Positions 6,823 through 21,661 of a stretch of DNA of 50,014 nucleotides are shown one piece after another. The notes below the pieces were generated by a model. That model worked only from the letters and a program-made list of their open reading frames with translations. It had not been told where the DNA came from and did not search any database. The position numbers were made by a program, and so were the translations under genes. The DNA lies in contig VGKS01000001.1 in NCBI GenBank assembly GCA_016866935.1, positions 1 through 50,014 on the forward strand. Reading direction: 5' to 3'. Every line of letters begins with the position of its first letter. Position 1 is the stretch's first letter. Source of the stretch: Candidatus Pacearchaeota archaeon (GTDB lineage: Archaea > Nanobdellota > Nanobdellia > Pacearchaeales > GW2011-AR1).

Positions 6823-8550
6823 ATGTTTGTCTTAGGACTTAATATAGGACATAATTCTACGGCATGTCTGCTAAAAGATGGAAAGATAATTACTTGCGTG
6901 AGCGAGGAGAGATTTTCAAGAATAAAAAATCATGCAGGCATACCTTTCGCAGGAATAGATTATATCTTGAAGTCTAATGGGTTAGAAATTAAAGACTTGG
7001 CTACGATTGTATTGGACGACCATTATCCCATAATAAATGACCCTAAATTTGTGAAACAATTCTTGGAATCTTATATTCGCAAACCTCTTCATAAAAGAAT
7101 TTTATCTAAAATTGGATATAATTATCCAAATTTTTACTATAATTATAATTTAATGAAAAATCCTAGATCTTCAAATAAAAAAAGAAGAAATGAAGTAAGA
7201 AATTACCTTGCAAGAAAACTTAACTATCCAATAGAAAAGATTATTTTGATAGATCATCATTACGCTCACGCGCTTGCGCCTTGCTTCAATCTTAACAAAA
7301 ACCAAAAAACTCTTGTTTTTACTCTGGACGGGGAAGGAAGCGGAACTTGCGCTACTGTAAATATATTTGATGGTAAAAATCTTAAAAGAATAGCAATGAC
7401 AGATAAAAGCGCTTCTTTAGGATACCTTTATGCAATAACTACTATTATTTTAGGAATGAAACCTCTTGAACATGAATTCAAGGTAATGGGGCTGGCTCCA
7501 TATGCAAAGACAGAAAAAGTAAAGGAAGTTTATGAGGAGCTCAGAAAGATAATATGGGTAGACTCCTTAAAATTTAAGTCAAAATTCAATATGCCTTTTG
7601 TAGACAATTATTTGCTTGATAAAATGAAGTTTGTTAGGTTTGACACATTAGCAGGTGCTGTGCAAATGCTTACTGAAGAGCTAACACTGGAATGGATAAG
7701 AAATGCCATTAAGGCCACAGGAATACATAACATTGCTTTGGCTGGAGGGGTATTTATGAACGTTAAAGCAAACCAAAGAATAGCTAATCTAGACGAAGTT
7801 CAGAGCATTTTTGTTATGCCGAGTTGTGGGGATGAATCTAATGCAATAGGTTCTTGCTTTTTTGGATATAGGGAGCTAAATAAGGATAAAAATATTAACT
7901 TTAGAGCCATAGAAGACTTATATCTTGGACCAGAATGCGACAATAAAGATTTAGAGGATTATCTCAAGAAAAATAAACTGAAAAATTATACTGTAAAAAA
8001 AGTAAAAAAAATAAATAAAGAAGTTGCAAAACTTCTTGCAGAAGGGCAAATAGTAGCAAGATGCAGTGGAAGAAGTGAATGGGGTGCTAGATCACTTGGA
8101 AATAGGGCAATACTTGCTAATCCTAGTGACCCTGAAACAATAAGGATTTTGAATGAAACAATAAAAGACAGAGATTTTTGGATGCCATTCACCCCCAGCA
8201 TTATTGAAGATGATGCTCATAAATACATAAAAAACCCAAAGAAGATAAAAGCTCCTTATATGACTCTAACATTTGACTCTACAAAACTTGCACAAGAGCA
8301 TTTATCTGCAGCTATGCACCCATATGATTTTACACTTAGGCCTCAAATAGTATACAAAAACTGGAACAAAGGATATTATGATCTAATAAAAGAGTTCAAA
8401 AAATTAACAAAGATCGGAGGAATATTAAACACTTCATTCAACCTCCATGGAGAACCTAATGTATTAACTATTAATGATGCCATTCACACACTAGATAATT
8501 CGGCACTTAGATATCTGGCAATTGGAGATTACTTAATTAAAAAGAATTAG
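6823..8550 (+). CDS. Carbamoyltransferase (NodU/CmcH family)
   Basis: LGLNIGHNSTACLL..SEERFSRIKN, DHHYAHA, LAGGVFMNVKAN, RSLGNRAILANP and SFNLHGEP motifs are characteristic of NodU/CmcH O-carbamoyltransferases. Confidence 0.85.
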   Translation: MFVLGLNIGHNSTACLLKDGKIITCVSEERFSRIKNHAGIPFAGIDYILKSNGLEIKDLATIVLDDHYPIINDPKFVKQFLESYIRKPLHKRILSKIGYNYPNFYYNYNLMKNPRSSNKKRRNEVRNYLARKLNYPIEKIILIDHHYAHALAPCFNLNKNQKTLVFTLDGEGSGTCATVNIFDGKNLKRIAMTDKSASLGYLYAITTIILGMKPLEHEFKVMGLAPYAKTEKVKEVYEELRKIIWVDSLKFKSKFNMPFVDNYLLDKMKFVRFDTLAGAVQMLTEELTLEWIRNAIKATGIHNIALAGGVFMNVKANQRIANLDEVQSIFVMPSCGDESNAIGSCFFGYRELNKDKNINFRAIEDLYLGPECDNKDLEDYLKKNKLKNYTVKKVKKINKEVAKLLAEGQIVARCSGRSEWGARSLGNRAILANPSDPETIRILNETIKDRDFWMPFTPSIIEDDAHKYIKNPKKIKAPYMTLTFDSTKLAQEHLSAAMHPYDFTLRPQIVYKNWNKGYYDLIKEFKKLTKIGGILNTSFNLHGEPNVLTINDAIHTLDNSALRYLAIGDYLIKKN

Positions 8551-11240
8551 TAGTACAATACATTTTTATCTTGAAGTGGCAAAATAACACAAGACAAATG
8601 CTCTTCGGTTGACTGCCCTATATTTATCTCCCCATTTAAATATTTCTCAATGCTTATATTAAAGTTTAAATTTTGAGGCTGCCCTCTTAGAGTAACTTCG
8701 CTATCTTCAAGAGTCAAGTACATTTTATTAAAAGGTACAAATGTTGCATCATTTATTGTGAGGCCATCTGATTTTATAATAGCATTAACTGAATCCATTC
8801 TAATTTTTAGAGGAGTATTGCAGCTTTCTTCAGGCGTTTGAGGAGCTATATAAAAAGTAGGATTGATTAAATCTATTTTTCTAAAGATTATTCTTTTATT
8901 TCCACTTATCATAGCAGTAATAGAATCTAAATAAGATACATCCAAGTCCGCTCTTTCGGCTTCAAAAACCTTATTTTGTGTATTATTTACAATTAAATTT
9001 TCTATAACTACTTTTCCTGTAAATATATTAAACTTTACATCATCTATGGAAAAGTCAGCGTTAGTTCTTTCCTTTATTATTTTAGAAATATTATTTACGT
9101 CTGTAAATGAATTGACTGCTACATAGAATAGTAAAATAATCAACAATAAAATACAGATTATGGTTATCTTAAAACCGATATTTCTCAGTCTACTCAATAT
9201 TTTATTTATCTTGAATTCAAGTCTAGGCAATCTATTCTTCCTTTGAACAAATAAAAACAAAGACACTCCAATAATTAAAACCAAAGGAGACAAAATTAAA
9301 CCTAAATAAAATTGTTTTGCTACATACTTTAATTCTATCGAATTATCTCCTTCTGGCGCTTCAAATACTATTCTTCCAAATTCATCCGAATAGATTTCTT
9401 TTTTCTCATGATTAACTTTTAGCACATAATTATCTTTATGCAATAGGTTGATAGTTACATTTTTAGGCTCAGAAAATACGGTGTTAAATTTCAGGCCATT
9501 AGAAAGTCTTAAGTATTCTATTTTTATTTCACCTGAAAATACATAACTTTTATATTTGTTTTCAAAGATAATAAAATGTTCATCTGAATAAACCTCATTT
9601 AAGCCAGCCAGTTCTTCATGATAAACAAGGCTATCGCGCGGAACTAATACCCACCTTACCCCATACTCTCCAAGACCTGACAGATTAATAGTTACCTCTG
9701 ATAGGCCATATTTTGACACAGGTATTCTTTCATAAGTTAAAGTATCTTGAAATGGTTCGTAAGCAAAAACAGAGTCTATCCCAAAATAAGTTGGAAAATT
9801 ATGTGTAAGTGGCCCAAAATATTTCATTTCATTAGAAGCATTTGAATATTTCACGTTAGTAGGGTTATAGGTGCTGTTGGTAAACACTCCGATAAGTCTT
9901 CCCTCCTTATTTTGCAAAGATTCGTACTTATCCAGGTTTAGAGGAAGACTTTCCTCAAACCTTGGCCCTGACAGATTAACTGCTATAAATACATGATAAA
10001 CTATAAGAATAAGAAACAATAAAGAAAAGAGAATAAAGATCTTATTTCGATAACTAATATTCAAGTTTTCATATGCTTTGTCAAGAACTATTGCTCCGAA
10101 TAGGGCCATGAATATATTTGTGAAAAGAGTTATTTTCAAAGGATAACTAAAGTTACTTAGGATAGGTAAAAACGCTCCAAAAGTATAGATTATCCCATAG
10201 TAGCCCATGCTTAGCAATATAGCTAGTATTGCAAGGAAAAATAAAGGATGGATTTTCTTTAAAGACCTCTTTCTATATTTGTATAATCCATATAATCCCC
10301 CTAAAAAGAAGAATATTGAAAATAAGCCTCCTGCGTAATATATTGCTATAACATCTGGTCCGGAATAAAACAAAGGATTATTAGACTTAACAAGTGGAAA
10401 AGGAAGAATAGATCCTTTTACTATATCTATAGGAGAACTCGGAGGGCTTATAATATAATTAATTAAATTTAAGTTGCCGCGCGGAGATTCTGAGGCAATA
10501 TGCAATTGTGAAAGAATAAGAGGTAAAGCCACATATACTGTAATCAGCATAGATAATCCGTACCTACTAAGAATAGAAGCATAATTTTTAAATTCATTTT
10601 TATGCATTAATAACACCAGATAGAGAAACTCGAAAATAACTGAATATACAAAATACTGGGCATTTCCGGAATAAAAATAAAGCCCTCTTATCATCCCTGA
10701 ACTAATGAAAATCTTTTTTGAGGAATCTTTTATCAAAGATTCAGCGAAATGAAGAAGAAGCGGAAGAAAAACAAGCGTAGGAATCAAATAAAACCAGCTT
10801 GAGGAATAAATTAAGATATATCCTGAATATACTACAGCAACACTTGCAAGCATTGAAATGAATTTTCTTTTTACTTTGTTATTAAGAAAAATGTAGATAA
10901 CAAGAAAGCCAATTATGAGGTGAATGAAAACAAATATTTCCATAAATAAGAAAACGTTTCCAAAAACATAATTTGAAAAAATATAAGCCAAGATACTTAT
11001 TGGATAGAAGAAAGGGTATGTCCCAACCTCCAACATCGGGGAACCTAACGATTGATGCATATTTAATACCGGAAGATCAAAATTGAACAGTTGGTCAAAA
11101 CCTTCAAGCAAAACAGGAAGAAACTGCTCTATATTGTCTCCTTGAGTAAAGTTATATGGATGCAACGATTCAATATAAAAGAATATTGCTATGACAATTA
11201 ATATCCCTAAAATGGGGTAGAAAATATCTTGTTTTTTCAT
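8547..11240 (-). CDS. Large polytopic membrane protein, YfhO/GT-C-like (tentative)
   Basis: 897 aa. The N-terminal half has many hydrophobic helices (QGDNIEQFLPVLLEGF.. loop after TM1). This is followed by a soluble middle domain, two further TM segments and a C-terminal domain of about 190 aa. The family call rests on layout only. Confidence 0.45.
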   Translation of the reverse strand: MKKQDIFYPILGILIVIAIFFYIESLHPYNFTQGDNIEQFLPVLLEGFDQLFNFDLPVLNMHQSLGSPMLEVGTYPFFYPISILAYIFSNYVFGNVFLFMEIFVFIHLIIGFLVIYIFLNNKVKRKFISMLASVAVVYSGYILIYSSSWFYLIPTLVFLPLLLHFAESLIKDSSKKIFISSGMIRGLYFYSGNAQYFVYSVIFEFLYLVLLMHKNEFKNYASILSRYGLSMLITVYVALPLILSQLHIASESPRGNLNLINYIISPPSSPIDIVKGSILPFPLVKSNNPLFYSGPDVIAIYYAGGLFSIFFFLGGLYGLYKYRKRSLKKIHPLFFLAILAILLSMGYYGIIYTFGAFLPILSNFSYPLKITLFTNIFMALFGAIVLDKAYENLNISYRNKIFILFSLLFLILIVYHVFIAVNLSGPRFEESLPLNLDKYESLQNKEGRLIGVFTNSTYNPTNVKYSNASNEMKYFGPLTHNFPTYFGIDSVFAYEPFQDTLTYERIPVSKYGLSEVTINLSGLGEYGVRWVLVPRDSLVYHEELAGLNEVYSDEHFIIFENKYKSYVFSGEIKIEYLRLSNGLKFNTVFSEPKNVTINLLHKDNYVLKVNHEKKEIYSDEFGRIVFEAPEGDNSIELKYVAKQFYLGLILSPLVLIIGVSLFLFVQRKNRLPRLEFKINKILSRLRNIGFKITIICILLLIILLFYVAVNSFTDVNNISKIIKERTNADFSIDDVKFNIFTGKVVIENLIVNNTQNKVFEAERADLDVSYLDSITAMISGNKRIIFRKIDLINPTFYIAPQTPEESCNTPLKIRMDSVNAIIKSDGLTINDATFVPFNKMYLTLEDSEVTLRGQPQNLNFNISIEKYLNGEINIGQSTEEHLSCVILPLQDKNVLYY

Positions 11241-11284
11241 TAAAAATTAGATTTATAGCGGTTTAAAATCTCTTCTGTAAGAGG

Positions 11285-11923
11285 TTAGAGCTTTACCACT
11301 CCTGATTTTTCCCACTGTTCTACATATTGAGCGGCTGTCATTACTGCATCCAGTTTAAATCCAAGAGACTTAAGCCCTTCAATATACTTAGGGATGTCAG
11401 CAGGTCTTCCCCATCTTTCAGGACAAACAAGACAAGTCTTGAATTTAGAAAGGACAGAAATATCTTCTTTGGTTATAGGAAGTTTTGTATTTGTATCAAT
11501 CCAGACCCAGTTAAGCATTGGATTACCATTCTCATCCAACTGAGCACCCACATACTCTATTGGCTCTGCTTCGCTAAATCTTATTGAAACTCTTCTCATT
11601 CCTTCTTTTCTTGTTGCTCTATATATATAAGGGAATTCAGCGTCTTGAAAGAACCAATCCTTGACATTATATTTATGCATTAAATCAATAATCCTTTTTT
11701 CATAACCCATTTCCTTGATGTTAAGCACCATCACTCCAGAATGCCTCCAATGCTTAAGATATTCTTCAAAATCGGTGTAAGTCGCCAGTTTAGAATCCTC
11801 AATAGGATCATGAGTCATCAGTAGCTTATCCCCATACCCTCTTAAGTCAAGCTCGACTCCATGGCTAGGATTGACTGTTTTCAAAGCTTCTATCGTGTTT
11901 ATACGATGCCTTATAATTCCCAT
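11285..11923 (-). CDS. Glycerophosphodiester phosphodiesterase-like (GDPD/PLC-like TIM barrel) protein
   Basis: N-terminal RHRINTIEAL..GVELDLR..LLMTHDP matches the HR..N..E-D-R..HD catalytic pattern of GDPD enzymes. Confidence 0.6.
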   Translation of the reverse strand: MGIIRHRINTIEALKTVNPSHGVELDLRGYGDKLLMTHDPIEDSKLATYTDFEEYLKHWRHSGVMVLNIKEMGYEKRIIDLMHKYNVKDWFFQDAEFPYIYRATRKEGMRRVSIRFSEAEPIEYVGAQLDENGNPMLNWVWIDTNTKLPITKEDISVLSKFKTCLVCPERWGRPADIPKYIEGLKSLGFKLDAVMTAAQYVEQWEKSGVVKL

Positions 11924-11943
11924 AAAATTGTATAAAATAACAC

Positions 11944-11951
11944 TTTATAAA
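11944..11951 (-). promoter_or_regulatory. TATA box of the GDPD-like gene
   Basis: TTTATAAA (palindromic), with its centre 24.5 nt upstream of start 11923. Confidence 0.5.
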
Positions 11952-12006
11952 TTAATCTAAGATCATTTTACTTAAAATGCCACACACTTTATAATTTGCC
12001 TAATAA

Positions 12007-12729
12007 TTAATTTAGTTTTTTCTTTAACTCGAAAGTAAACTTCATTGTTCTTTTTATGAATTTTATCCTTGCTTTCCATCCTGTATTCCAGGCGCTTTCT
12101 CCAAAAATCCTCTTTCCAAAGTAAACAGGGAATCTTTTTACCTCATATCCGTATTTCTTAGCAGTATAATATACGAATAAGTCAAACGCGAAATCTTTTG
12201 GAGGATTGGATAGATGCTTCATCAAAGATTTTGGGAAAATATTTGGCTGAGCGTTTATATCATACATAAAACTTCCCAGAACTACTGTTTCAAATATAGA
12301 CATACCTAAAGTATTGACTAATTTATCAGCTAAAGGCCTTCCATAACGTTTTCCCTTCAAAAATATTTTTTTATTTTTGGAAGACTTTATTATTTCTAGA
12401 GCCCTAAAAACATCTTCTGGAGGAGTCTGCATATCTGCATGGGTCCAGCCTACAAATTCTCCTTTAGCAGAAGCAAGGCCTTTCCACAGAGCTGCTCCGT
12501 AGCCAGGTTCAGGTTGGAACACTGACTTTGCAAAAGAATACTTTTTTTTCTTAAGAAGACTCTTGAGAACCTCTTTTGTTTCATCTTTTGAATTGTTATC
12601 TACGAGAATTAATTCAATATTTGGATTATTAAACTTAACAAAGGCATTACTAAATTTCTCTAAAACTATAGAAATATTCTTTGCTTCATTATAACAAGGC
12701 AAAACTATTGAGAGATATGGTTTTTTCAT
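12007..12729 (-). CDS. Glycosyltransferase family 2 (polyprenol-phosphate sugar synthase-like)
   Basis: YLSIVLPCYNEAKNI and LILVDNNSKDET motifs. The 240-aa soluble DPM1/GtrB-like size fits. There is a 1-nt start/stop overlap with the upstream gene. Confidence 0.8.
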   Translation of the reverse strand: MKKPYLSIVLPCYNEAKNISIVLEKFSNAFVKFNNPNIELILVDNNSKDETKEVLKSLLKKKKYSFAKSVFQPEPGYGAALWKGLASAKGEFVGWTHADMQTPPEDVFRALEIIKSSKNKKIFLKGKRYGRPLADKLVNTLGMSIFETVVLGSFMYDINAQPNIFPKSLMKHLSNPPKDFAFDLFVYYTAKKYGYEVKRFPVYFGKRIFGESAWNTGWKARIKFIKRTMKFTFELKKKLN

Positions 12730-13550
12730 TATTTTTTACCGAAATAAGAATGCCAGAAAGCATATTCTTTCTTTTCTTTAGCTTCTGGGTTTTTTTCTGG
12801 CAGAGCAATTGCTTTTTCCCAGTAAAGGTATTCTTCATAATCTGCAGGCACTCCCCATCCAATATATTTTTCTACCGGGAATGAAACCACTTTGTAGCCC
12901 ATTTCTATTGCCACTCCAATCATAGAATCTATATAATATTCTCCCTTTACTGTTACTCCCCTACGCATCAATTCTTCTGCAATCTTTAGAAATTCTTTTC
13001 CGCTTTTGAAACTGAATGAACCCGTAATAGCATAATCATCGTAAGGATTATTTGAAATTGGAACCTTGACTGAAACTCCTTTTATATTATGATCTTTGTC
13101 GATCTTAAGCCAACCCCAGGCCTGAGGGTTTCTAGTCAGGTTAGGCTGTTTAGTGAAGCTCCAGGAAATCATGTCAGGACTTTTAGATTTGATTAAATTT
13201 TGATACTTATGAAGATCATAAACCATTCCAAGGTCACAAGCTCCTACAAAAATAGGCTCATCATAGTCATAGAATTTTCTTGCAACAAGACACGAATTTA
13301 ATTGGCCTATGGGATTTGGGTCAACTATTATTTCCACATCTTTAGATACAGACTTAAGAGCGCTAATTACTTCTTTTTCCTCTAAATGTTCCTGCCTCAC
13401 TACAAAAACCCACTTGTCTGCCGGAGGCATTGATTTGACAGCCTGAATAATCATTGGCGCTCCAGAAACAGGGATAAGTGGCTTTGAAAGTTTGTAACCA
13501 GCATCGGTAAAACGTTTTCCACTTCCGGCCATTAATACCACGTTTATCAT
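12729..13550 (-). CDS. Sugar-phosphate (or alditol/ketose-phosphate) nucleotidyltransferase, GT-A fold
   Basis: N-terminal VVLMAGSGKRF..KPLIPVSG signature of the NTP_transferase family. The substrate cannot be read from the sequence. Confidence 0.7.
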   Translation of the reverse strand: MINVVLMAGSGKRFTDAGYKLSKPLIPVSGAPMIIQAVKSMPPADKWVFVVRQEHLEEKEVISALKSVSKDVEIIVDPNPIGQLNSCLVARKFYDYDEPIFVGACDLGMVYDLHKYQNLIKSKSPDMISWSFTKQPNLTRNPQAWGWLKIDKDHNIKGVSVKVPISNNPYDDYAITGSFSFKSGKEFLKIAEELMRRGVTVKGEYYIDSMIGVAIEMGYKVVSFPVEKYIGWGVPADYEEYLYWEKAIALPEKNPEAKEKKEYAFWHSYFGKK

Positions 13551-14248
13551 TTTTTACCCTGACCGTAATAGGCCCCTTTACCATGCTTACGATTGTAGTG
13601 TCTTTCAAGAAGTGGTTTTGGGATGCTACATGGCATGCCCCCAAGCATATTTTTCATGCTAATTGCCATTTTAGATACTTCTTCAAGAGCAATAGCATTC
13701 TCCACTGCATCATCAACACTTTTTCCCCATACAAAAGGACCGTGATATGCAACCAGGCAAGCTGGAACCTCGAGGTGATTGACTGACCCAAACGCTTCCG
13801 CTATCGCTTTGCCCGTGTTTAATTCGTAATCTAAATTAATTTCAGCGGTGGAAAGGTCTCTTGAAACAGGCACTGTTCCATTAAAATGATCTGCATGGGT
13901 TGTCCCATAGCAATGTAGAGGCATTTTAGCTTGACAGAAAGAAGTAGCGAAAGGAGAATGAGTATGGACTATTCCCTTTATGCCTTTCAAATTCTGGTAG
14001 AGATAAAGATGGGTAGGGGTATCTGAACTTGGCTTATGTTTTCCTTCTATTACAGAACCATCTTCCACATTCACTACAACCATATCATCAGGAGTTAAAG
14101 AATCATAATGGACTCCGCTTGGCTTAATTGCAAAGTATTTTCCATCATCACTTAACCCGCTTACATTTCCAAATGAAAGCTTAACTAAACCTTCCTTAAC
14201 AATTCTTTTGTTAGCTTCTGCAACTCTTGCCTTTAGATCTTCAAACAT
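13547..14248 (-). CDS. araD: L-ribulose-5-phosphate 4-epimerase (class II aldolase fold)
   Basis: Near-collinear with enterobacterial AraD/SgbE/UlaF as I recall them: FEDLK..V.EAN, GNVS, IKPSGV, KPSSDTPTH, GIVHTHS, GTTHADHF.GT.P, HGPFVWGK, NAIALEEV and RKHGKGAYYGQ. Confidence 0.85.
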   Translation of the reverse strand: MFEDLKARVAEANKRIVKEGLVKLSFGNVSGLSDDGKYFAIKPSGVHYDSLTPDDMVVVNVEDGSVIEGKHKPSSDTPTHLYLYQNLKGIKGIVHTHSPFATSFCQAKMPLHCYGTTHADHFNGTVPVSRDLSTAEINLDYELNTGKAIAEAFGSVNHLEVPACLVAYHGPFVWGKSVDDAVENAIALEEVSKMAISMKNMLGGMPCSIPKPLLERHYNRKHGKGAYYGQGKK

Positions 14249-14864
14249 TTTCGAAAGTGAACTTTTTAATTATCTGAGGTTTATTTTCCTCCTTATATAA
14301 AACTATAGAATCAAATACAAATTGACCAGCTAGATTTTGACCAAGTATAGTTTTATGAACAAGGTCAAAAACCTTTTGATCTATGGAAGCCAAACTTAAA
14401 TGAGGTATCCAGTTTTCCCCTACAAAAGGAAATCCATATTTGATAATATTATCTTTCTCTATTTGCCCTGATTTCTTAAAGACATCTGACTCGGAAGAGA
14501 AAAACTTCATTTTATCAGAGATATTAAGGGAATCTAAAAATTCAACCTGCAAGTTCTTAAGATTTTTTGTTGCAAATGATGAAAAATTGTAAGTTATAGT
14601 ATTTCCACCTGTCTGGATATCATTATAGAAGACATGCATTCCTTTTATCTCTGAATTTATCTTTTTTGTTTTTGAAACAAAAGAGCTTATTTTTTCTAAA
14701 ATAATCTTTTCACCATAATCATCCAAATTTAGAAGTACAAGCGTGGTATGGGGGGAATGAGACAGAAACTTTTGGTCTCCAACTAGATTAAAAACAGTTT
14801 CTTTATGATCCATTATTTTTTCATAAACTTTTCTTTCAGGTTCAAGTGCTATGAAATATTTCAT
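14241..14864 (-). CDS. 2H phosphoesterase superfamily protein (LigT/cyclic phosphodiesterase-like)
   Basis: Two H-x-T/S-x motifs at the expected spacing: SPHTTLVL and IPHLSLAS. Confidence 0.6.
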   Translation of the reverse strand: MKYFIALEPERKVYEKIMDHKETVFNLVGDQKFLSHSPHTTLVLLNLDDYGEKIILEKISSFVSKTKKINSEIKGMHVFYNDIQTGGNTITYNFSSFATKNLKNLQVEFLDSLNISDKMKFFSSESDVFKKSGQIEKDNIIKYGFPFVGENWIPHLSLASIDQKVFDLVHKTILGQNLAGQFVFDSIVLYKEENKPQIIKKFTFENV

Positions 14865-17362
14865 TATAATTTAGAGAACATCCTTTCAATTTGATCCCTA
14901 TTTAACTCCAGAAAAAACCTTCCATCTTTAGAAATTACTCCTTTTATCTCATCCAAGTGGTCTATTTTAATTTTATGCCAGTCCTTAACTGGAATATTTG
15001 AATAAGTTCCAACAAGAGACCTAAGGAAAACATTATGAGTACAAACAAGGATTTTTTTGTGGGAGTATCTTCTAAGGTCTTTAACGAATGAAAACATCCT
15101 TTTTTGAACATCTGCATTATTTTCACCTGAAGGAAATGCGGTATCTTCCCCTAGATCCCATGAATCTACTATTCCAGGGTAGTTTTTTTGGAGAAAAGAA
15201 AAGTCCTTACCATCTACTAAACCGTAGTCTACCTCTATAAGGCGTTTATCTTTTTTAGCTTTTTTTGCTTTGGAATGCTCCAAGGTTTCTAGACACCTTT
15301 TTAATGGTGATGAAAATACCAGATCAAAATCGCTAAAATCAAGTTTCTTCTTTAAGTTCTTTATTCCAATGTCAGTTTTTTGACCGAGGAATAATCCTTC
15401 TTTATTCATTTCTGTAGGTGCATGCCTTATGAAAGAGATTTGTTTTCCTGAATAAAAGTAATCTTTAAACTGGCTCTCAAAATCCTTCAAAAATTTCTCT
15501 AAAGAAGATTCTATGCTTTTCTCAAAACCAAAGTTTCTCTTGAGCTTATCAGAATACATTTTTTCGATTAAAGATCTGTGCCAGATTGCGTTTTTCTTAA
15601 ATATTTTGAAATAATTGTCAAGCATTTTATCGAAATCAGGCTTACTGTTTCTTCTATTATATAATTTCAGGAAGTTTAAGATCAAAAACTTGCATATATG
15701 GTAAGAGAATTCTATTTTATGCCGAGAATCCATCTCTTTGAAATTCTTTTCTTCTACCACATTACCTTTTTTATCAAATGCGTATGACCTATAAGAGATA
15801 TTACCACTCTTTAAGTCTTTTAGGTAATCTGAAACGCTTCTTCTTGAATTAAAGAAAAAACTAGGCTGCAATAACTTAACTGAATAGATTCTTTCGATAG
15901 GTTTCTTTGAATATTTCCTGGATCTTTGCCAATCAAAACATGTAAATGGGCTATCCAAACAATGAAGTCTATGCGATTCTATATCGTAAAACATAAGGTG
16001 GAAAACTATACACCTATCATTGAATTTTAATGGTCCAAGAGTGTTATTTATGAGAAATTTTATACCATATTTAGATTCAAGACATTTTGATAAATCTTTA
16101 AAGTCATTTAAAACCTTTAGAAAGTTATCTTTTGAAAGTTTATCAAATATGATTACTGTATCTATATCACTAGCTCCTTCTAAATCATAAGTTTCTGCAA
16201 ATGTTCCTACTAAGTTTCCAGATACCAAAAACTTATTAGACCTAACAATCTTGTTTATTTCATCCACTATATCCTTCCTAATTGTTTCAGATAAGGATGA
16301 ATACCTTGCGCTAGTCTTTAATTCCATAAAAGATTTAATAGGATCATCTGAATTTATCAAGCTAGAGGCTGAAACTATATACCTAGCATTTATCTTTTGG
16401 ATGTTTGTTGGCTTTACCCCTCCATCAAAAATAACTTTTATTCCATTCAGATTAAGAGAGTTTACTTTTTCTAATAGACTCAATGAATCTATGGTGAAAT
16501 TTTGACCTGATTTACCCACTTCTTCGATACCCATTACTTGAATGTAGTCTATTTTTTTGAGATATTTCTTGAGTTTATCTAAATCTGATTTTATTGTAAT
16601 GACAATACCGACTTTTTTATTGAAACTTTTGCATAAATCTATTACTTCATCCAAAACTTCATTAACTTCTAAATGAACCGTTATTACATCAACATACTTA
16701 TGAAGTTTCTTAATCCAGATAGAGGGTGTCTTTGACATAATATGCAACTGCTTTTCAAGAAACCAAACACTGCTTATCTTTTTTATTAGAGGTAAATCTA
16801 TCTCTTCAGCCTCTTCACTCATTGATTTATCTACAAAGTCTATATGGATAAAATCAGAATAATATTTTATTTTTGAATAAACATCTTCTATTGACTCGTC
16901 TTTCTTAAGGTAAACTGCGACACCTACTTTCTTCACGAAATCTGTGAAAGTTATTTTTCTATGCGCAAAATAGCTCAGTAGAAATACTACTCCTGCAGTG
17001 AAAAGCCTGGAAGGGCCATAATTTGAGTTTATTCCTCCAAAAAGAACAGACATTATTAGTAGATTAAGAAGAAAAGCTACGACTGCTATTGATAAGAAAA
17101 TACTAAAAGTTTTTGCATTCCTTCCTTTTGGAACTCTAAAATTAAGCCTGGAATTGAGAAGGAAACTTATGAAAACTCCTGAAATGAAGCCAAGAGGGAT
17201 GCTAATAAGTGAAGGCGATTCTAGAATATTAAGATAATGAACAATTAGGATTTCTAAACCAACCGAGAAAAGGCCTATTATTATGTAATTAATAAGATAT
17301 CTGAACCTATATAGTAAAAACTTAGTTTCCCTTCTAAGACTCTGAGATTTTAAGATTGCCAT
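14864..17362 (-). CDS. Four-domain fusion: GtrA-like membrane domain, ribulose-phosphate-3-epimerase-like TIM barrel, Pol-beta-type nucleotidyltransferase, and histidine phosphatase
   Basis: aa 14-139: 4 TM helices ending in AHRKITF (GtrA-like). aa 146-348: IHIDFVD, LHIMS, ITVHLE, IQVMGIEEVGKSGQNF and IFDGGV (RPE pattern). aa 365-480: GNLVGTF..GASDIDTVIIFD (minimal nucleotidyltransferase). aa 641-825: FIRHAPTEMN, FSSPLKRC, PSGENNADV and LVCTHNVFLRSL (histidine phosphatase/PGAM family). Confidence 0.65.
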   Translation of the reverse strand: MAILKSQSLRRETKFLLYRFRYLINYIIIGLFSVGLEILIVHYLNILESPSLISIPLGFISGVFISFLLNSRLNFRVPKGRNAKTFSIFLSIAVVAFLLNLLIMSVLFGGINSNYGPSRLFTAGVVFLLSYFAHRKITFTDFVKKVGVAVYLKKDESIEDVYSKIKYYSDFIHIDFVDKSMSEEAEEIDLPLIKKISSVWFLEKQLHIMSKTPSIWIKKLHKYVDVITVHLEVNEVLDEVIDLCKSFNKKVGIVITIKSDLDKLKKYLKKIDYIQVMGIEEVGKSGQNFTIDSLSLLEKVNSLNLNGIKVIFDGGVKPTNIQKINARYIVSASSLINSDDPIKSFMELKTSARYSSLSETIRKDIVDEINKIVRSNKFLVSGNLVGTFAETYDLEGASDIDTVIIFDKLSKDNFLKVLNDFKDLSKCLESKYGIKFLINNTLGPLKFNDRCIVFHLMFYDIESHRLHCLDSPFTCFDWQRSRKYSKKPIERIYSVKLLQPSFFFNSRRSVSDYLKDLKSGNISYRSYAFDKKGNVVEEKNFKEMDSRHKIEFSYHICKFLILNFLKLYNRRNSKPDFDKMLDNYFKIFKKNAIWHRSLIEKMYSDKLKRNFGFEKSIESSLEKFLKDFESQFKDYFYSGKQISFIRHAPTEMNKEGLFLGQKTDIGIKNLKKKLDFSDFDLVFSSPLKRCLETLEHSKAKKAKKDKRLIEVDYGLVDGKDFSFLQKNYPGIVDSWDLGEDTAFPSGENNADVQKRMFSFVKDLRRYSHKKILVCTHNVFLRSLVGTYSNIPVKDWHKIKIDHLDEIKGVISKDGRFFLELNRDQIERMFSKL

Positions 17363-18034
17363 TTATATTATCAAAAATATTGCTCCGCCTATGCCATATC
17401 TTCCAAGTTCTTCTACTACGAGCTTATTTCTTTTACAGAACTCTTTAAATGCTTTTCTCACTCCTCTTTCTACCCCTCCTAAATAATTGAAATAATCGTC
17501 TAAAATCAGTATAGTTCCCTTTTGGACCACTTTATCTATAAACTTGAAAGCTTGGCTCGCAGAAGAATGCAAATCGCAATCCATCATAATCATTGCGGCT
17601 TTCTTAATCCCGTATTTTGAAGGGCCTTCTTTAAGAGTGTGATTGAAAAAGCCAGGGACCAGTTTTACTTCAGGAAAATTCCTAAACCTTTTCTTGATTT
17701 GGTGAAAATCTGTTGAAAAGTCAAAGTTTGTATAAAATGGGTGCTCATCTCCTTTTTCAGGGCTCATTCCTTTGAAAGAGTCAAAACCGAAAAACCTCAT
17801 ATTTTTTCCACCCCCTATTTTTCTCCAGTAGGTAGCTGCTCCCTTTATGCTGGTTCCTTCATACACTCCAAATTCCAAGTAATCTCCTTCCACCCCTTCT
17901 ATCTTTTTGTAAAATAGGAACTTCTTTAGAGATTCATGCTTCTCATTATTATGGATTATTTCAGGACCAACCAAATTACTTATTTTGATATAGATGTCTT
18001 GCGCAAAAAGAAATAACTTATGTAAAGATTTCAT
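17363..18034 (-). CDS. TylF/MycF-like SAM-dependent O-methyltransferase
   Basis: GDYLEFGVYEGTS and MMDCDLHSS..GTILILDDY motifs of the macrocin-O-methyltransferase family. Confidence 0.7.
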   Translation of the reverse strand: MKSLHKLFLFAQDIYIKISNLVGPEIIHNNEKHESLKKFLFYKKIEGVEGDYLEFGVYEGTSIKGAATYWRKIGGGKNMRFFGFDSFKGMSPEKGDEHPFYTNFDFSTDFHQIKKRFRNFPEVKLVPGFFNHTLKEGPSKYGIKKAAMIMMDCDLHSSASQAFKFIDKVVQKGTILILDDYFNYLGGVERGVRKAFKEFCKRNKLVVEELGRYGIGGAIFLII

Positions 18035-18055
18035 AAAAAAACCCGCTATTTAGGG

Positions 18056-18063
18056 TATAAATA
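18056..18063 (-). promoter_or_regulatory. TATA box heading the 18034-12007 operon
   Basis: TATAAATA on the plus strand (TATTTATA in gene sense), with its centre 25.5 nt upstream of start 18034. Confidence 0.55.
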
Positions 18064-18072
18064 GATTATTGT

Positions 18073-19743: not shown

Positions 19744-19766
19744 TTGAATACCCTACTAGAAAGTAA

Positions 19767-19772
19767 TTTAAA
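19767..19772. promoter_or_regulatory. Single symmetric TATA element shared by divergent genes
   Basis: TTTAAA is the only TATA-like element in the 50-nt spacer 19744-19793. Its centre is 26.5 nt from start 19743 (-) and 24.5 nt from ATG 19794 (+). Confidence 0.5.
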
Positions 19773-19793
19773 CGTTACCATACAGTGTGGACT

Positions 19794-21632: not shown

Positions 21633-21661
21633 CAATATATAAAGTTTATTATAAATTAAAA

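What the first reader, a model, noticed from the sequence alone, without database searches (positions are those of the whole stretch)
12007..18063. Translationally coupled six-gene operon pairing two pentulose-5-phosphate epimerase activities with nucleotidyltransferases and phosphoesterases
Seen in the sequence: on the minus strand, one TATA box (18056-18063) is followed by six genes in this order. They are a TylF-like O-methyltransferase, the 832-aa fusion protein, a 2H phosphoesterase, AraD, an NTP-transferase and a GT2. The junctions are 0-nt, 1-nt, 8-nt, 4-nt and 1-nt gaps or overlaps, so there is no room for internal promoters. Established knowledge: AraD interconverts L-ribulose-5-P and D-xylulose-5-P, and ribulose-phosphate 3-epimerase interconverts D-ribulose-5-P and D-xylulose-5-P. 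Ketopentose or pentitol phosphates are nucleotide-activated for bacterial teichoic acids and capsules, for example CDP-ribitol via TarI/TarJ and CDP-D-arabinitol from D-xylulose-5-P in pneumococci. Inference: the operon could channel pentose-phosphate-pathway Ru5P into a nucleotide-activated L-pentulose or pentitol phosphate donor for a teichoic-acid-like phosphodiester decoration of the archaeal surface. The 2H, histidine-phosphatase and neighbouring GDPD-like phosphoesterases fit phosphodiester chemistry. I know of no described archaeal pathway of this kind, but that needs a literature and database check.
Basis: partly seen in the sequence, partly recalled or inferred. Interest (0 to 1): 0.7.

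Follow-up and report, generated by a model that had tools for sequence, protein, structure and literature searches.

The report
Conserved pentulose-phosphate to lipid-linked sugar cassette
The six overlapping genes are real and form the core of an uncharacterised gene cassette, shared by tiny archaea and many bacterial phyla, that most likely turns a five-carbon keto-sugar phosphate into a lipid-carried sugar used to decorate the cell surface.

Summary
Six minus-strand ORFs (12007-18034) have junctions of 0, -1, -8, -4 and -1 nt, and the domain calls hold: TylF-like methyltransferase, an 832-aa GtrA/RPE-like/pol-beta NTase/His-phosphatase fusion, 2H phosphoesterase, AraD, an RmlA-type NTP-transferase and a GT2.

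The unit is not specific to archaea. Around the NTase-HisPhos bait in 90 loci, spanning DPANN archaea, a haloarchaeon and more than ten bacterial phyla, the other parts recur: GtrA and RPE 83/90, NTP-transferase 83, 2H 82, the downstream 212-aa protein 72, GT2 70. AraD is optional (53/90) and the methyltransferase is rare (7/90). Varying domain fusions tie the parts to one pathway.

- The GT2 is of the Dol-P-mannose synthase/ArnC type.
- The 212-aa protein has a GDPD/PI-PLC-like fold.
- A large polytopic membrane protein usually lies next to the cassette.
- No reductase and no TagF/LicD-type transferase is present.

The likely product is therefore a polyprenyl-phosphate-linked sugar for glycosylation outside the membrane, not a teichoic-acid-like pentitol phosphate. 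A sister cassette on proteobacterial plasmids uses a phosphoribulokinase-like kinase and a RuBP-5-phosphatase-like HAD instead, which points to ketopentose chemistry. No paper describing either cassette was found.

The parts
18056..18063 (-). TATA-like octamer TATTTATA, 21 nt upstream of the methyltransferase ATG. A possible archaeal promoter for a leaderless transcript.
   Evidence: Sequence read. The motif is not enriched over chance in the window, so this is position-based inference only.
17363..18034 (-). TylF-like O-methyltransferase, 223 aa. An accessory gene, not part of the conserved cassette.
   Evidence: PF05711, E 4e-14. Present near the cassette in only 7 of 90 loci.
16913..17362 (-). 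Fusion protein residues 1-150: GtrA/DPMS-type transmembrane domain. Probably the membrane and polyprenyl-phosphate-binding partner of the soluble GT2, or a flippase.
   Evidence: PF04138, E 6e-14. Three or more hydrophobic segments. In all but a few, mostly contig-edge, relatives it is fused to the RPE-like domain. The GT2 aligns to P. furiosus DPMS only up to the point where that enzyme's own transmembrane domain begins.
16331..16912 (-). Fusion protein residues 151-344: divergent ribulose-phosphate 3-epimerase-like barrel.
   Evidence: PF00834, E 3e-20. Aligns to human RPE 3QC3 with H-x-D, H and D conserved. These residues are kept in 76-78 of 78 relatives. Scores are below the NCBIfam equivalog cut-offs.
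15443..16330 (-). Fusion protein residues 345-640: pol-beta-type nucleotidyltransferase followed by a helical domain. A family of its own.
   Evidence: PF01909 matches 22 of 26 members, and G42/S43/D55/D57 are invariant. The AF2 model has pLDDT 93 and pTM 0.90. No sequence relative in the PDB. 256 clusters at 50% identity among 1.84 billion representatives.
14864..15442 (-). Fusion protein residues 641-832: histidine phosphatase (branch 1), fused to the NTase in nearly every relative.
   Evidence: PF00300, E 5e-27. The nearest NCBIfam model is alpha-ribazole-5'-phosphate phosphatase. RH...H catalytic residues are conserved. Foldseek top hits are histidine phosphatases.
14241..14864 (-). 2H phosphoesterase (cyclic phosphodiesterase type), 207 aa.
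   Evidence: PF13563, E 2e-4. H39-x-T41 and H155-x-S/T157 are kept in 70-71 of 71 relatives. Fused to NTase-HisPhos or to HisPhos in 10 loci.
13547..14248 (-). L-ribulose-5-phosphate 4-epimerase (AraD), 233 aa. An optional member of the cassette.
   Evidence: NF006047, 298.8 bits, above its cut-off of 257. Full-length alignment to E. coli AraD 1JDI with all catalytic and Zn residues kept. Present in 53 of 90 loci.
12729..13550 (-). RmlA/GlmU-type sugar-phosphate nucleotidylyltransferase, 273 aa.
   Evidence: PF00483 and PF12804. Best PDB relatives are RmlA enzymes. GxGxR...K is invariant. Present in 83 of 90 loci. Fused to GT2 once and to NTase-HisPhos once.
12007..12729 (-). DPMS/ArnC-type GT2 without a transmembrane domain, 240 aa. 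A predicted polyprenyl-phosphate glycosyltransferase.
   Evidence: PF00535, E 3e-22. Best PDB match is P. furiosus Dol-P-Man synthase 5MLZ (residues 25-251), followed by ArnC. It carries H-A-D-x-Q (65/65 relatives) where those enzymes have D-A-D-L-Q.
11285..11923 (-). p212: a highly conserved GDPD/PI-PLC-like TIM-barrel protein with no Pfam family. A core member of the cassette that lies outside the reported coordinates.
   Evidence: 1297 homologues; none of the 120 best listed has a Pfam hit or any name but 'hypothetical protein'. AF2 pLDDT 96. Foldseek finds GDPDs at TMq 0.6-0.75 and E about 3e-5. H6, R7, N9, E24, D26, R28 and H38 are invariant. Present in 72 of 90 loci.
8547..11240 (-). p897: polytopic membrane protein with about 12-14 transmembrane segments plus a large soluble part. 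A candidate GT-C-type transferase that would use the lipid-linked donor.
   Evidence: Hydropathy scan. Homologues lie next to the cassette in 5 loci, including archaeal and planctomycete ones. At the same position other loci carry PMT_2 or DUF6798 proteins. GT-C identity was not shown.

Best explanation
The operon is the core of a widely distributed biosynthetic cassette. It takes a ketopentose 5-phosphate from the pentose-phosphate pathway, converts it into a nucleotide sugar, and loads that sugar onto a polyprenyl phosphate. A neighbouring polytopic glycosyltransferase (p897 here; PMT_2 or DUF6798 proteins elsewhere) then uses the lipid-linked sugar to decorate a surface glycan or protein outside the membrane. 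It would be a 'three-component' glycosylation system with its own, unusual donor-synthesis branch.

**Shown**
- The gene set, its conservation and its fusions.
- Intact catalytic motifs in every member.
- The DPMS/ArnC affinity of the GT2.
- The GDPD-like fold of p212.

**Inferred order of steps**
1. The RPE-like domain, and AraD where present, set the configuration at C3 and C4 of the pentulose 5-phosphate.
2. The pol-beta NTase puts a nucleotidyl phosphate on O1.
3. The fused histidine phosphatase removes the 5-phosphate, which frees O5 so that the furanose ring can close.
4. The PI-PLC/GDPD-like p212 lets the anomeric 2-OH attack the phosphodiester, giving a 1,2-cyclic phosphate.
5. The 2H enzyme opens the cyclic phosphate to the anomeric 2-phosphate, as CPDase does with ADP-ribose 1'',2''-cyclic phosphate.
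6. The RmlA-type transferase makes the NDP-pentulofuranose.
7. The GT2, docked on the GtrA/DPMS transmembrane domain, makes the polyprenyl-P-pentulofuranose.
8. The TylF-like enzyme of this genome would add an O-methyl group.

The general function carries the stated confidence. The specific cyclic-phosphate route is a working hypothesis, at roughly 0.2-0.25.
For: **Co-occurrence.** In 90 loci found with the NTase-HisPhos bait: GtrA 83, RPE 83, NTP-transferase 83, 2H 82, p212 72, GT2 70, AraD 53. Most absences fall on truncated contigs.

**Conserved order and fusions.** The fusions link every step: GtrA-RPE, NTase-HisPhos, GtrA-RPE-NTase-HisPhos, 2H-NTase-HisPhos, HisPhos-2H, NTase-HisPhos-NTPtr, NTPtr-GT2 and GT2-2H.

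**Catalytic residues.** They are invariant in all families.

**Ketopentose origin.**
- AraD is bona fide.
- RPE metal ligands are kept.
- The sister 'type B' cassette on E. coli, Hirschia and Azospirillum plasmids keeps the GT2 (E 1e-95), p212 (1e-74), the NTP-transferase (1e-83) and GtrA.
- It replaces RPE, NTase, HisPhos and 2H with three other parts: a phosphoribulokinase-family kinase (205 bits), a HAD closest to ribulose-1,5-bisphosphate 5-phosphatase (E 2e-49), and a second, catalytically intact NTP-transferase domain.
- Both versions thus have two nucleotidyl-transfer steps and a distal phosphatase.
- The enzymology of RuBP 5-phosphatase and Ru1P is described in PMC9700705.

**Lipid-linked output.**
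- The GT2 aligns to PfDPMS 5MLZ residues 25-251 and to ArnC, including the DAD-LQ-x-PPE signature region, and lacks a transmembrane domain.
- Pfam defines PF04138 as the GtrA/DPMS transmembrane domain.
- 32 of 42 loci with full flanks have a protein of at least 430 aa and at least 8 transmembrane segments within 5 kb, several of them PMT_2.
- The window is a glycan island with flippase, epimerase and glycosyltransferase genes.

**Sugar-1-phosphate-type nucleotidyltransferase**.

**p212** has a GDPD-like fold and the HR/N/ExD/HD motif. NCBI names its plasmid homologues as PI-PLC/GDPD family.
Against: - There are no biochemical data for any member.
- The RPE-like domain is divergent: TIGR01163 scores 67 bits against a cut-off of 213, and the loop following the H-x-D motif differs. 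It may act on another ketose phosphate.
- AraD is missing from complete cassettes (for example L004, L006, L009), so the sugar's configuration cannot be the same everywhere, or AraD is encoded elsewhere.
- The substrates of the NTase, 2H and p212 are inferred only from family chemistry.
- Type B has no 2H, so the ring-opening step is unassigned there.
- Gemmatimonadota loci, and some planctomycete loci, lack GT2 and/or p212 nearby.
- GT2 enzymes normally use NDP-aldoses. No NDP-ketopentose or polyprenyl-P-ketopentose is known to me.
- p897 was not shown to be a GT-C.
- An NTase-only Foldseek search could not be run.
Confidence: 0.55

Rival explanations
1. The lipid-linked product is an aldopentofuranose, and the 5-phosphate is carried through activation. 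The pentulose-5-P is isomerised to a pentose-5-P (p212 or the RPE-like barrel would be the isomerase), activated at C1, and transferred by the GT2 to polyprenyl phosphate as pentofuranosyl-5-phosphate. The histidine phosphatase then removes the 5-phosphate, as in mycobacterial DPPR to DPR and in the Und-P-Ribf systems. The 2H enzyme would salvage 1,2-cyclic phosphate breakdown products, analogous to 5-phosphoribosyl 1,2-cyclic phosphate.
For: - The nearest curated model for the HisPhos is alpha-ribazole-5'-phosphate phosphatase, which removes a ribosyl 5-phosphate.
- Known pentofuranose three-component systems dephosphorylate after transfer to the lipid (PMC11127046).
- In archaea the phosphatase is tethered to the membrane through the GtrA domain.
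- Planctomycete 2H homologues show faint DUF1045 matches.
Against: - No recognisable aldose-ketose isomerase and no anomeric kinase is present.
- p212 keeps phosphodiesterase-type residues, not isomerase-type ones.
- The HisPhos is always fused to the NTase, not to the GT2 or GtrA, in bacteria.
- Type B makes a ketose 1-phosphate (PRK plus RuBP-5-phosphatase homologues), which does not lead simply to an aldose donor.
Confidence: 0.15
2. The cassette makes a nucleotide-activated pentulose or pentitol 5-phosphate (CDP-ribitol or CDP-arabinitol style), and the pentulose- or pentitol-phosphate is transferred as a phosphodiester, teichoic-acid-like decoration. The pol-beta NTase could act as a LicD/FKRP-like phosphotransferase, or p212 as a transesterase, possibly onto a polyprenyl-P-hexose made by the GT2.
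For: - Two pentulose-5-P epimerases sit with an NTP-transferase.
- Three phosphoesterase types are present: 2H, HisPhos and GDPD-like.
- LicD/FKRP phosphotransferases share the NTase fold (own knowledge).
- Both cassette types have two nucleotidyl-transfer-type enzymes.
Against: - No reductase was found in the cassette genes or in the neighbourhoods inspected, so no pentitol.
- The NTP-transferase is RmlA/GlmU-like, not IspD/TarI-like.
- There is no TagF, LicD (PF04991) or LtaS-type transferase.
- The model gives no role to a phosphomonoesterase fused to the NTase.
- The PRK plus RuBP-5-phosphatase pair in type B removes the very 5-phosphate that this model needs.
Confidence: 0.12
3. The cassette makes a soluble glycoside, a compatible-solute-type product. 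This would parallel glucosyl-3-phosphoglycerate synthase plus its histidine-phosphatase (GpgS/GpgP): the GT2 glycosylates a phosphorylated small acceptor and the HisPhos removes the phosphate.
For: The top NCBIfam hit of the GT2 is glucosyl-3-phosphoglycerate synthase (E 5e-13, far below its cut-off). Mycobacterial GpgP (Rv2419c) is among the structural matches of the HisPhos domain.
Against: - A GtrA/DPMS transmembrane domain is always present.
- The best structural-sequence match of the GT2 is Dol-P-Man synthase, then ArnC.
- Adjacent polytopic and PMT_2 proteins and the surrounding glycan-island context point to a membrane pathway.
Confidence: 0.05
4. There is no single pathway. A 2H/NTase/phosphatase RNA-end or nucleotide-repair module merely lies next to unrelated glycosylation genes.
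For: 2H, NTase and phosphatase domains are typical of RNA-repair systems (own knowledge). The NTase family has no characterised relative.
Against: The module is fused to the GtrA-RPE protein, to the NTP-transferase and (through 2H) to the GT2 in different lineages. It co-occurs with them in more than 80 of 90 loci across domains of life.
Confidence: 0.03

Closest known systems
Three-component periplasmic glycosylation systems (GtrA/GtrB/Gtr-type; CsbB-GtcA-YfhO; ArnC-ArnE/F-ArnT; PpgS-Rv3632-Rv3779)
   Same: They combine a GT2 polyprenyl-phosphate sugar synthase related to DPMS/ArnC, a small GtrA-family membrane partner and a polytopic GT-C-type transferase that acts outside the membrane. The same three kinds of protein are found here.
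   Different: - Those systems take a ready-made housekeeping nucleotide sugar.
- This cassette carries five or six extra enzymes that build its own donor from a pentulose phosphate.
- Here the GtrA domain is fused to an epimerase-like barrel.
- The GT2 has no membrane anchor.
- The GT2 has H-A-D in place of D-A-D.
Lipid-linked pentofuranose pathways: mycobacterial DPPR to DPR to DPA, and the Und-P-Ribf/Xylf three-component systems (Kelly et al. 2024, PMC11127046)
   Same: A pentose-phosphate-pathway-derived five-carbon sugar is loaded on polyprenyl phosphate. The pathway includes a distal 5-phosphatase step and epimerases that diversify the sugar, followed by flipping and GT-C transfer.
   Different: - Those pathways use PRPP and a UbiA-type polyprenyl phosphoribose synthase, and epimerise at the lipid stage with SDR or DprE1/E2 enzymes.
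- They use MATE or SMR flippases and GT136/Emb/Aft transferases.
- This cassette has no UbiA-type enzyme.
- It has a nucleotide-sugar step and a GT2.
- Its epimerases act on sugar phosphates (RPE, AraD).
NDP-heptose pathway (GmhA, HldE/HddA kinase, GmhB phosphatase, HldE/HddC nucleotidyltransferase)
   Same: The logic is the same: a ketose phosphate from the pentose-phosphate pathway, installation of an anomeric phosphate, removal of the distal phosphate by a dedicated phosphatase, then an RmlA/GlmU-type nucleotidyltransferase.
   Different: The enzyme families are entirely different for the isomerase, kinase and phosphatase steps. This cassette has no isomerase and no kinase. It has a pol-beta NTase, a 2H enzyme and a GDPD-like enzyme instead.
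CDP-ribitol and CDP-D-arabinitol synthesis (TarI/TarJ, Bcs1, AbpA/AbpB)
   Same: The starting material is Ru5P or Xu5P and the product is activated with a nucleotide.
   Different: Those pathways need a reductase and an IspD-type cytidylyltransferase, and they feed TagF/LicD-type phosphotransferases. None of these was found here.
Non-carboxylating pentose bisphosphate pathway of haloarchaea (RuBP 5-phosphatase, ribulose-1-phosphate aldolase; Sato et al. 2022, PMC9700705)
   Same: The sister 'type B' cassette contains a PRK-family kinase, a HAD closest to RuBP 5-phosphatase and a class II aldolase-fold protein. These are the enzymes that move the phosphate of a ribulose from C5 to C1.
   Different: That pathway is catabolic and ends in DHAP plus glycolaldehyde. 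In type B the enzymes are embedded with two nucleotidyltransferase domains, a GT2, GtrA and p212. The window's own cassette (type A) has none of these three enzymes.
2H cyclic phosphodiesterases (CPDase acting on ADP-ribose 1'',2''-cyclic phosphate) and PI-PLC/GDPD-fold cyclising phosphodiesterases
   Same: Together these two families make and open sugar or inositol 1,2-cyclic phosphates. The cassette has one member of each fold, with catalytic residues intact.
   Different: They are not known to work in sugar activation. p212 matches no GDPD or PI-PLC sequence profile. The substrate is unknown.

Membership tests
Ribulose-phosphate 3-epimerase (PF00834 / TIGR01163) | Sequence profile match above the curated thresholds. 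| tested here: inconclusive
   The Pfam gathering score is passed (72.8 bits against 21.1). All NCBIfam RPE models fall far below their cut-offs (TIGR01163 66.9 against 212.6; NF004076 92.9 against 165).
Ribulose-phosphate 3-epimerase (PF00834 / TIGR01163) | Metal-binding and catalytic His, Asp, His, Asp of the barrel. | tested here: met
   The alignment to human RPE 3QC3 shows IHID, LHIM and FDGG matching LHLD, MHMM and VDGG. These residues are kept in 76-78 of 78 relatives.
Ribulose-phosphate 3-epimerase (PF00834 / TIGR01163) | Interconversion of D-Ru5P and D-Xu5P. | not testable with these tools
   The MDG-FVPN loop after H-x-D is replaced (VDKSMSEEA), and the domain is nearly always fused to a membrane domain. 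Substrate unknown.
L-ribulose-5-phosphate 4-epimerase AraD | Curated profile score. | tested here: met
   NF006047 (subfamily) scores 298.8 bits, above its cut-off of 257. The stricter equivalog TIGR00760 scores 279.9, below its cut-off of 389.1.
L-ribulose-5-phosphate 4-epimerase AraD | Zn ligands D76, H95, H97 and H171, and acid/base residues D120 and Y229 (E. coli numbering). | tested here: met
   Full-length alignment to 1JDI. The residues are invariant in 52-53 of 53 cassette AraDs.
2H phosphoesterase superfamily | Two H-x-T/S motifs. | tested here: met
   PHTTL and PHLSL, with the His residues kept in 70/71 and 71/71 relatives.
2H phosphoesterase superfamily | Pfam PF13563 gathering score. 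| tested here: not met
   The window protein scores 21.9 bits, below the threshold of 27. Precomputed PF13563 hits are listed for homologues in L003, L004 and L007.
Histidine phosphatase superfamily, branch 1 | Profile match plus the RH(G/A) motif, the second Arg, Glu and the distal His. | tested here: met
   PF00300, 95 bits. R302, H303, R345, E366 and H432 are invariant in 58 sequences. Foldseek top hits are histidine phosphatases.
Pol-beta-type nucleotidyltransferase (PF01909) | G-[SG] ... D-x-D motif on the minimal NTase fold. | tested here: met
   G42, S43, D55 and D57 are invariant. The window domain itself is below threshold (14.2 bits against 21), but 22 of 26 relatives match PF01909, with a best E of 2.4e-5. 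Structural confirmation of the isolated domain was not possible.
Glycerophosphodiester phosphodiesterase / PI-PLC-like TIM barrels | Fold. | tested here: met
   The AF2 model has pLDDT 96. The 13 best Foldseek hits are all GDPDs: E 3e-5 to 3e-4, TMq 0.58-0.75.
Glycerophosphodiester phosphodiesterase / PI-PLC-like TIM barrels | Sequence-profile membership (PF03009 or a related family). | tested here: not met
   No Pfam or NCBIfam hit for p212 or for 38 relatives, even at E<=1. No PDB sequence hit.
Glycerophosphodiester phosphodiesterase / PI-PLC-like TIM barrels | Catalytic H-R, E-x-D and H-D residues. | tested here: inconclusive
   H6-R7, N9, E24-x-D26 and H38-D39 are invariant and lie in the same order as the GDPD motifs. 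The correspondence was judged by eye, not by a residue-level structural alignment.
DPMS/ArnC/GtrB-type polyprenyl-phosphate glycosyltransferases (GT2) | GT-A domain aligning with DPMS/ArnC through the D-A-D-L-Q-x-P-P-E region and the interface helices. | tested here: met
   Aligns to 5MLZ (E 5e-11, residues 6-233 against 25-251), then to ArnC structures.
DPMS/ArnC/GtrB-type polyprenyl-phosphate glycosyltransferases (GT2) | Canonical D-x-D metal and nucleotide motif. | tested here: not met
   The first Asp is His: H97-A-D99-x-Q101 in 65 of 65 relatives. This variant is specific to the family.
DPMS/ArnC/GtrB-type polyprenyl-phosphate glycosyltransferases (GT2) | Membrane domain that binds the polyprenyl phosphate. 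| tested here: inconclusive
   Absent from the GT2 itself. A GtrA/DPMS transmembrane domain is encoded in trans in the fusion protein. An interaction between the two was not tested.
Three-component extracytoplasmic glycosylation system | Polyprenyl-P sugar synthase, GtrA-type membrane protein and GT-C transferase encoded together. | tested here: inconclusive
   The first two are present. A polytopic protein is adjacent in 32 of 42 loci with full flanks, and it is PMT_2 in at least three. p897 of this window has no family match.
CDP-alditol / teichoic-acid-type pathway | Pentulose-5-P reductase, IspD/TarI-type cytidylyltransferase and TagF/LicD-type phosphotransferase. | tested here: not met
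   None of the three was detected in the cassette genes or in the neighbourhoods inspected.

The most novel reading that the evidence does not exclude
The cassette encodes a previously unknown way of activating a ketopentose as a glycosyl donor. The phosphate of a pentulose 5-phosphate would be relocated to the anomeric C2 through three steps: a nucleotidylated O1, loss of the 5-phosphate, and a 1,2-cyclic phosphate made by a PI-PLC/GDPD-like enzyme and opened by a 2H enzyme. The products would be an NDP-pentulofuranose and then a polyprenyl-phosphate-pentulofuranose.

This would supply the missing biosynthetic origin of xylulofuranose- or ribulofuranose-type residues. Such residues are known in some O antigens, capsules and chlorovirus N-glycans, and their donor is undefined (PMC7685785). 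It would also predict such sugars on the surfaces of DPANN archaea, SAR11, Planctomycetota and candidate-phyla bacteria.
Probability: 0.22. Interest if true: 0.88.

Novelty: new variant of a known kind. Interest (0 to 1): 0.7.

Why it matters
If the reading is right, one compact and horizontally mobile cassette gives very different microbes the ability to make a dedicated lipid-linked five-carbon sugar for surface decoration. The carriers include host-dependent DPANN archaea and Patescibacteria, SAR11, Planctomycetota and a haloarchaeon.

- It would add a nucleotide-sugar/GT2 route for pentose-type sugars to the recently defined PRPP-based route.
- It would assign functions to three families that now have none: the NTase-HisPhos family, the p212 family (more than 1,000 homologues; all of the best 120 unnamed or 'hypothetical') and the GtrA-RPE fusion.
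- It would offer a concrete, testable candidate for the unknown activated donor of ketopentofuranoses.
- Cultured carriers and an E. coli plasmid version make it experimentally tractable.

Tried and rejected
- **PDB sequence searches.** Searches with the NTase domain and with p212, as single sequences and as profiles, gave nothing significant.
- **Foldseek of the NTase+HisPhos model.** It returned only histidine phosphatases in the 50 rows shown, so the NTase domain could not be placed structurally.
- **Pfam on 38 p212 relatives at E<=1.** Only noise.
- **p212 as a PRPP-dependent glycan phosphoribosyltransferase.** The idea came from distant p212 homologues lying next to HAD phosphatases in LPS loci. 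It was not supported: the prototype 7SHG is absent from the 50 best Foldseek hits, which are GDPDs and other TIM barrels. It was not tested further.
- **hhalign of type B's extra regions.** The PRK N- and C-terminal extensions and the aldolase C-terminal extension were compared with all type A domains. There was no relationship apart from aldolase to AraD.
- **TATA enrichment.** None.
- **Phage collection.** No p212 homologue.
- **E. coli complete genomes.** The type B cassette is in only 2 of 5,426, both on plasmids, so no link to the Xulf-containing serogroups O95 and O97 could be made.
- **Gemmatimonadota loci without GT2 or p212.** Their neighbours (DsbD, PAP2, ABC transporter, methyltransferase) did not reveal a replacement.
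- **Literature.** They combined GtrA, RPE, AraD, PRK, xylulose, undecaprenyl and O-antigen, and found no description of either cassette. Only open-access papers are covered.

Full report
**1. Observation**

The window has six tightly packed minus-strand ORFs exactly where the finding places them: 17363-18034, 14864-17362, 14241-14864, 13547-14248, 12729-13550 and 12007-12729. Their junctions are 0, -1, -8, -4 and -1 nt. Profile searches confirm each call.

| ORF | Call |
|---|---|
| 17363-18034 | TylF-like methyltransferase |
| 14864-17362 | 832-aa protein: GtrA/DPMS transmembrane domain, ribulose-phosphate-3-epimerase-like barrel, C-terminal histidine phosphatase |
| 14241-14864 | weak but real 2H phosphoesterase |
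| 13547-14248 | AraD |
| 12729-13550 | NTP-transferase |
| 12007-12729 | GT2 |

The unassigned middle of the fusion (about residues 345-640) is a pol-beta-type nucleotidyltransferase. GS...DxD is invariant, and PF01909 matches 22 of 26 relatives.

TATTTATA lies 21 nt upstream of the first ATG. In this 32% G+C window TTTATA is no more frequent than in shuffled sequence: 99 sites against 112 +/- 11. Seven further TTTAWA hexamers lie inside the coding sequence. The promoter call is therefore plausible by position but is not evidence in itself.

The window is archaeal. It encodes DUF655, an Rpb3/RpoD-type subunit and a 5S rRNA. The closest relatives of the operon are Woesearchaeota and Nanoarchaeota MAGs. 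The surroundings form a glycan-biosynthesis island.

**2. What the unit really is**

The fusion protein has full-length homologues in DPANN archaea and in the cultured haloarchaeon Halobaculum sp. P14. In bacteria its halves occur as separate proteins. Gene neighbourhoods showed the same set of partners in Halobaculum, in a 652-kb DPANN contig and in Planctomycetota.

A scan of one genome per species, using the NTase-HisPhos part as bait, returned 80 further loci. They come from:
- Woesearchaeota and Nanoarchaeota
- Planctomycetota, including Limnoglobus roseus PX52
- Verrucomicrobiota
- Pelagibacteraceae (SAR11) and other Alphaproteobacteria
- Bacteroidota
- Gemmatimonadota
- Patescibacteria and Gracilibacteria
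- Spirochaetia, Armatimonadia, Sumerlaeia and Neomarinimicrobiota
- a vicinamibacterial (Acidobacteriota) MAG, and Beta- and Gammaproteobacteria

Searching the ORFs of all 90 loci with the window's proteins gave these counts:

| Component | Loci with a hit (of 90) |
|---|---|
| GtrA | 83 |
| RPE-like | 83 |
| NTP-transferase | 83 |
| 2H | 82 |
| p212 (212-aa protein downstream of the finding) | 72 |
| GT2 | 70 |
| AraD | 53 |
| TylF-like methyltransferase | 7 |
| upstream 556-aa glycosyltransferase | 2 |

Many of the absences fall on short contigs. Gene order is largely conserved.

The fusion pattern is informative:
- GtrA-RPE is nearly always one protein.
- NTase-HisPhos is nearly always one protein.
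- Individual lineages also show GtrA-RPE-NTase-HisPhos, GtrA-RPE-NTase, 2H-NTase-HisPhos, HisPhos-2H, NTase-HisPhos-2H, NTase-HisPhos-NTP-transferase, NTP-transferase-GT2 and GT2-2H.

These fusions link every component into one pathway. The NTase domain family is discrete: 256 clusters at 50% identity among 1.84 billion representatives, nearly all in this architecture.

**3. State of the catalytic sites**

- **AraD.** It aligns over its full length, at about 55% identity, with E. coli AraD. It keeps D76, H95, H97, D120, H171 and Y229. It passes the NF006047 cut-off.
- **RPE-like domain.** It keeps the H-x-D, H and D ligands but scores far below the NCBIfam RPE cut-offs. It also has a different loop after H-x-D, so its substrate is open.
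- **Other enzymes.** The two HxT/S motifs of the 2H enzyme, the RH...H set of the phosphatase and the GxGxR...K motif of the NTP-transferase are essentially invariant.
- **NTP-transferase.** Its nearest solved relatives are RmlA enzymes and its nearest models are GlmU/RmlA types. That makes it a sugar-1-phosphate-type enzyme rather than an IspD/TarI type.
- **GT2.** It aligns best with the catalytic domain and interface helices of P. furiosus Dol-P-mannose synthase (5MLZ residues 25-251), then with ArnC. The alignment includes the DAD-LQ-x-PPE region. The GT2 lacks a membrane domain and carries H-A-D in all 65 relatives. Pfam defines PF04138 as the GtrA/DPMS transmembrane domain. The GT2 plus the GtrA domain therefore looks like a split DPMS-type polyprenyl-phosphate glycosyltransferase.
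- **p212.** Its AlphaFold model (pLDDT 96) is a TIM barrel whose 13 best matches are glycerophosphodiester phosphodiesterases. Its invariant H6-R7, N9, E24-x-D26 and H38-D39 follow the order of the GDPD catalytic motifs.
- **p897.** The 897-aa protein downstream has about 12-14 transmembrane segments.
- **Polytopic neighbours.** Among loci with 5-kb flanks, 32 of 42 have a large polytopic protein within 5 kb, mostly directly adjacent. Where Pfam recognises them they are PMT_2 (GT-C) or DUF6798.

**4. A sister cassette**

A tblastn search with p212 against plasmids found a second version on plasmids of E. coli, Hirschia baltica and Azospirillum brasilense.

- It shares the GT2 (E 1e-95 against the family profile), p212 (1e-74), GtrA and the NTP-transferase (1e-83).
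- It lacks the RPE-like, NTase, HisPhos and 2H parts.
- In their place it has:
  - a tandem NTP-transferase with two intact domains;
  - a 660-705-aa protein with a phosphoribulokinase-family domain (205 bits);
  - a HAD hydrolase whose best model is the haloarchaeal ribulose-1,5-bisphosphate 5-phosphatase (E 2e-49);
  - a class II aldolase-fold protein.

The RuBP 5-phosphatase and Ru1P aldolase were characterised by Sato et al. 2022 (PMC9700705).

This natural replacement matters for three reasons. First, it points independently to ketopentose phosphates. Second, it shows that both versions pair a distal-phosphate phosphatase with two nucleotidyl-transfer-type enzymes. Third, it shows that p212, the NTP-transferase, the GT2 and GtrA form the common downstream part.

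**5. Mechanism**

What is well supported is the general function: a ketopentose 5-phosphate is converted into a nucleotide sugar, then into a polyprenyl-phosphate-linked sugar, which a polytopic transferase uses outside the membrane.

The step-by-step scheme is inference.
1. Pentulose 5-phosphates cannot cyclise, because O5 is blocked. A glycosyl donor therefore requires loss of the 5-phosphate and a phosphate at the anomeric C2.
2. I propose that the NTase nucleotidylates O1.
3. The fused phosphatase then removes the 5-phosphate.
4. p212 forms a 1,2-cyclic phosphate. PI-PLC and some GDPD-fold enzymes are cyclising phosphodiesterases (established knowledge).
5. The 2H enzyme opens the ring to the anomeric phosphate, as CPDase converts ADP-ribose 1'',2''-cyclic phosphate to the 1''-phosphate (established knowledge).
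6. The RmlA-type enzyme and the GT2 then act.

In type B, the kinase plus the first NTP-transferase domain would do the job of the NTase, and the HAD would do that of the HisPhos.

Weak points of the scheme:
- Type B has no 2H enzyme.
- AraD is optional.
- NDP-ketopentoses are unknown to me.
- The isolated NTase domain could not be compared with known structures.

**6. Comparison with what is known**

The system resembles the three-component Gtr/Arn/CsbB-type systems. It also resembles the lipid-linked pentofuranose systems just described by Kelly et al. 2024 (PMC11127046). Those use PRPP, a UbiA-type synthase and lipid-stage epimerases. This cassette uses sugar-phosphate epimerases, a nucleotide sugar and a GT2.

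Reviews state that the activated form of xylulofuranose, and the genes for it, are unknown (PMC7685785). Xylulofuranose, partly methylated, also occurs in chlorovirus N-glycans (PMC9614988). No paper on either cassette was found in ten searches of the open-access library.

**7. Verdict**

The pentulose-phosphate origin and the nucleotide activation are right. The pentitol or teichoic-like output and the archaeal specificity are not.
- The finding is best filed as a new variant of a known kind: extracytoplasmic glycosylation from a polyprenyl-phosphate donor, with an uncharacterised and chemically unusual donor-synthesis module that is widespread in uncultured and ecologically important lineages.
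- Interest is 0.7.

Noticed in passing
L091 (E. coli plasmid NZ_CP145712) 6022-14984; L092 (Hirschia baltica pHbal01) about 8650-21830; L093 (Azospirillum brasilense p5) 8157-15541: A sister 'type B' cassette: class II aldolase-like protein, tandem double NTP-transferase, GtrA, GT2, a p212 homologue, a PRK-family kinase with about 360 aa of unassigned N-terminal sequence, and a RuBP-5-phosphatase-like HAD. Found in only 2 of 5,426 complete E. coli genomes, both on small plasmids.
   Followed up: partly
window 12007-12729 (GT2 residues 97-101): The cassette GT2 has H-A-D-x-Q in 65 of 65 relatives, at the position where Dol-P-Man synthase and ArnC have D-A-D-L-Q. This may reflect an unusual donor or metal site.
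   Followed up: partly
window 3260-4726 (-) and 27726-29522 (-): Two further PMT_2-family (GT-C) membrane glycosyltransferases lie in the same window. Either could use a lipid-linked donor instead of, or as well as, p897.
   Followed up: no
window 24006-26120 (+): A 704-aa protein combining NTP_transferase and GHMP-kinase domains (from the annotation of the identical contig L001). This is a second, independent sugar kinase/nucleotidyltransferase in the island.
   Followed up: no
window 6823-8550 (+): A carbamoyltransferase (Carbam_trans_N/C) converges on the 3' end of p897. It may carry out O-carbamoylation of a glycan.
   Followed up: no
window 11924-12006 and 11241-11284: The 83-nt and 44-nt gaps before p212 and p897 contain their own TTTATA/TATAAA motifs. 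These two genes may be transcribed separately from the six-gene block.
   Followed up: partly
L094 (Scandinavium goeteborgense plasmid) 8911-10180; L095 (Azospirillum lipoferum plasmid) 8905-10291: Distant p212 homologues (24-26% identity) sit directly upstream of HAD-family phosphatases, with WavE-family genes close by, in LPS-type clusters. There is no RPE, NTase or PRK, so the p212 fold may have a wider role in glycan assembly.
   Followed up: no
L069, L076, L079 (two Gemmatimonadota MAGs and one unclassified bacterium): The cassette is reduced to GtrA-RPE, NTase-HisPhos, 2H and NTP-transferase, with no GT2 or p212 within 9 kb. Neighbours of L069 and L079 include DsbD, PAP2 and ABC-transporter genes.
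   Followed up: partly
L003 (Halobaculum sp. P14) 10001-12916; also P0028, P0032, P0038: Some fusion proteins (about 970-1000 aa) carry an extra N-terminal GtrA-like domain, giving two GtrA domains in one polypeptide. Many bacterial loci instead encode a second, free-standing GtrA.
   Followed up: no
window 35510-36737: An RNA cluster: tRNA-Gly, tRNA-Arg and tRNA-Leu on the minus strand and a 5S rRNA on the plus strand (36622-36737). An archaeal RpoD/ribosomal-protein-type gene cluster and a tyrosine recombinase (47589-48425) lie downstream.
   Followed up: no
window 12001-14000: The AraD/NTP-transferase segment has the highest G+C of the region (0.368 against about 0.32). This fits the patchy phylogenetic distribution and a horizontally acquired cassette.
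   Followed up: no
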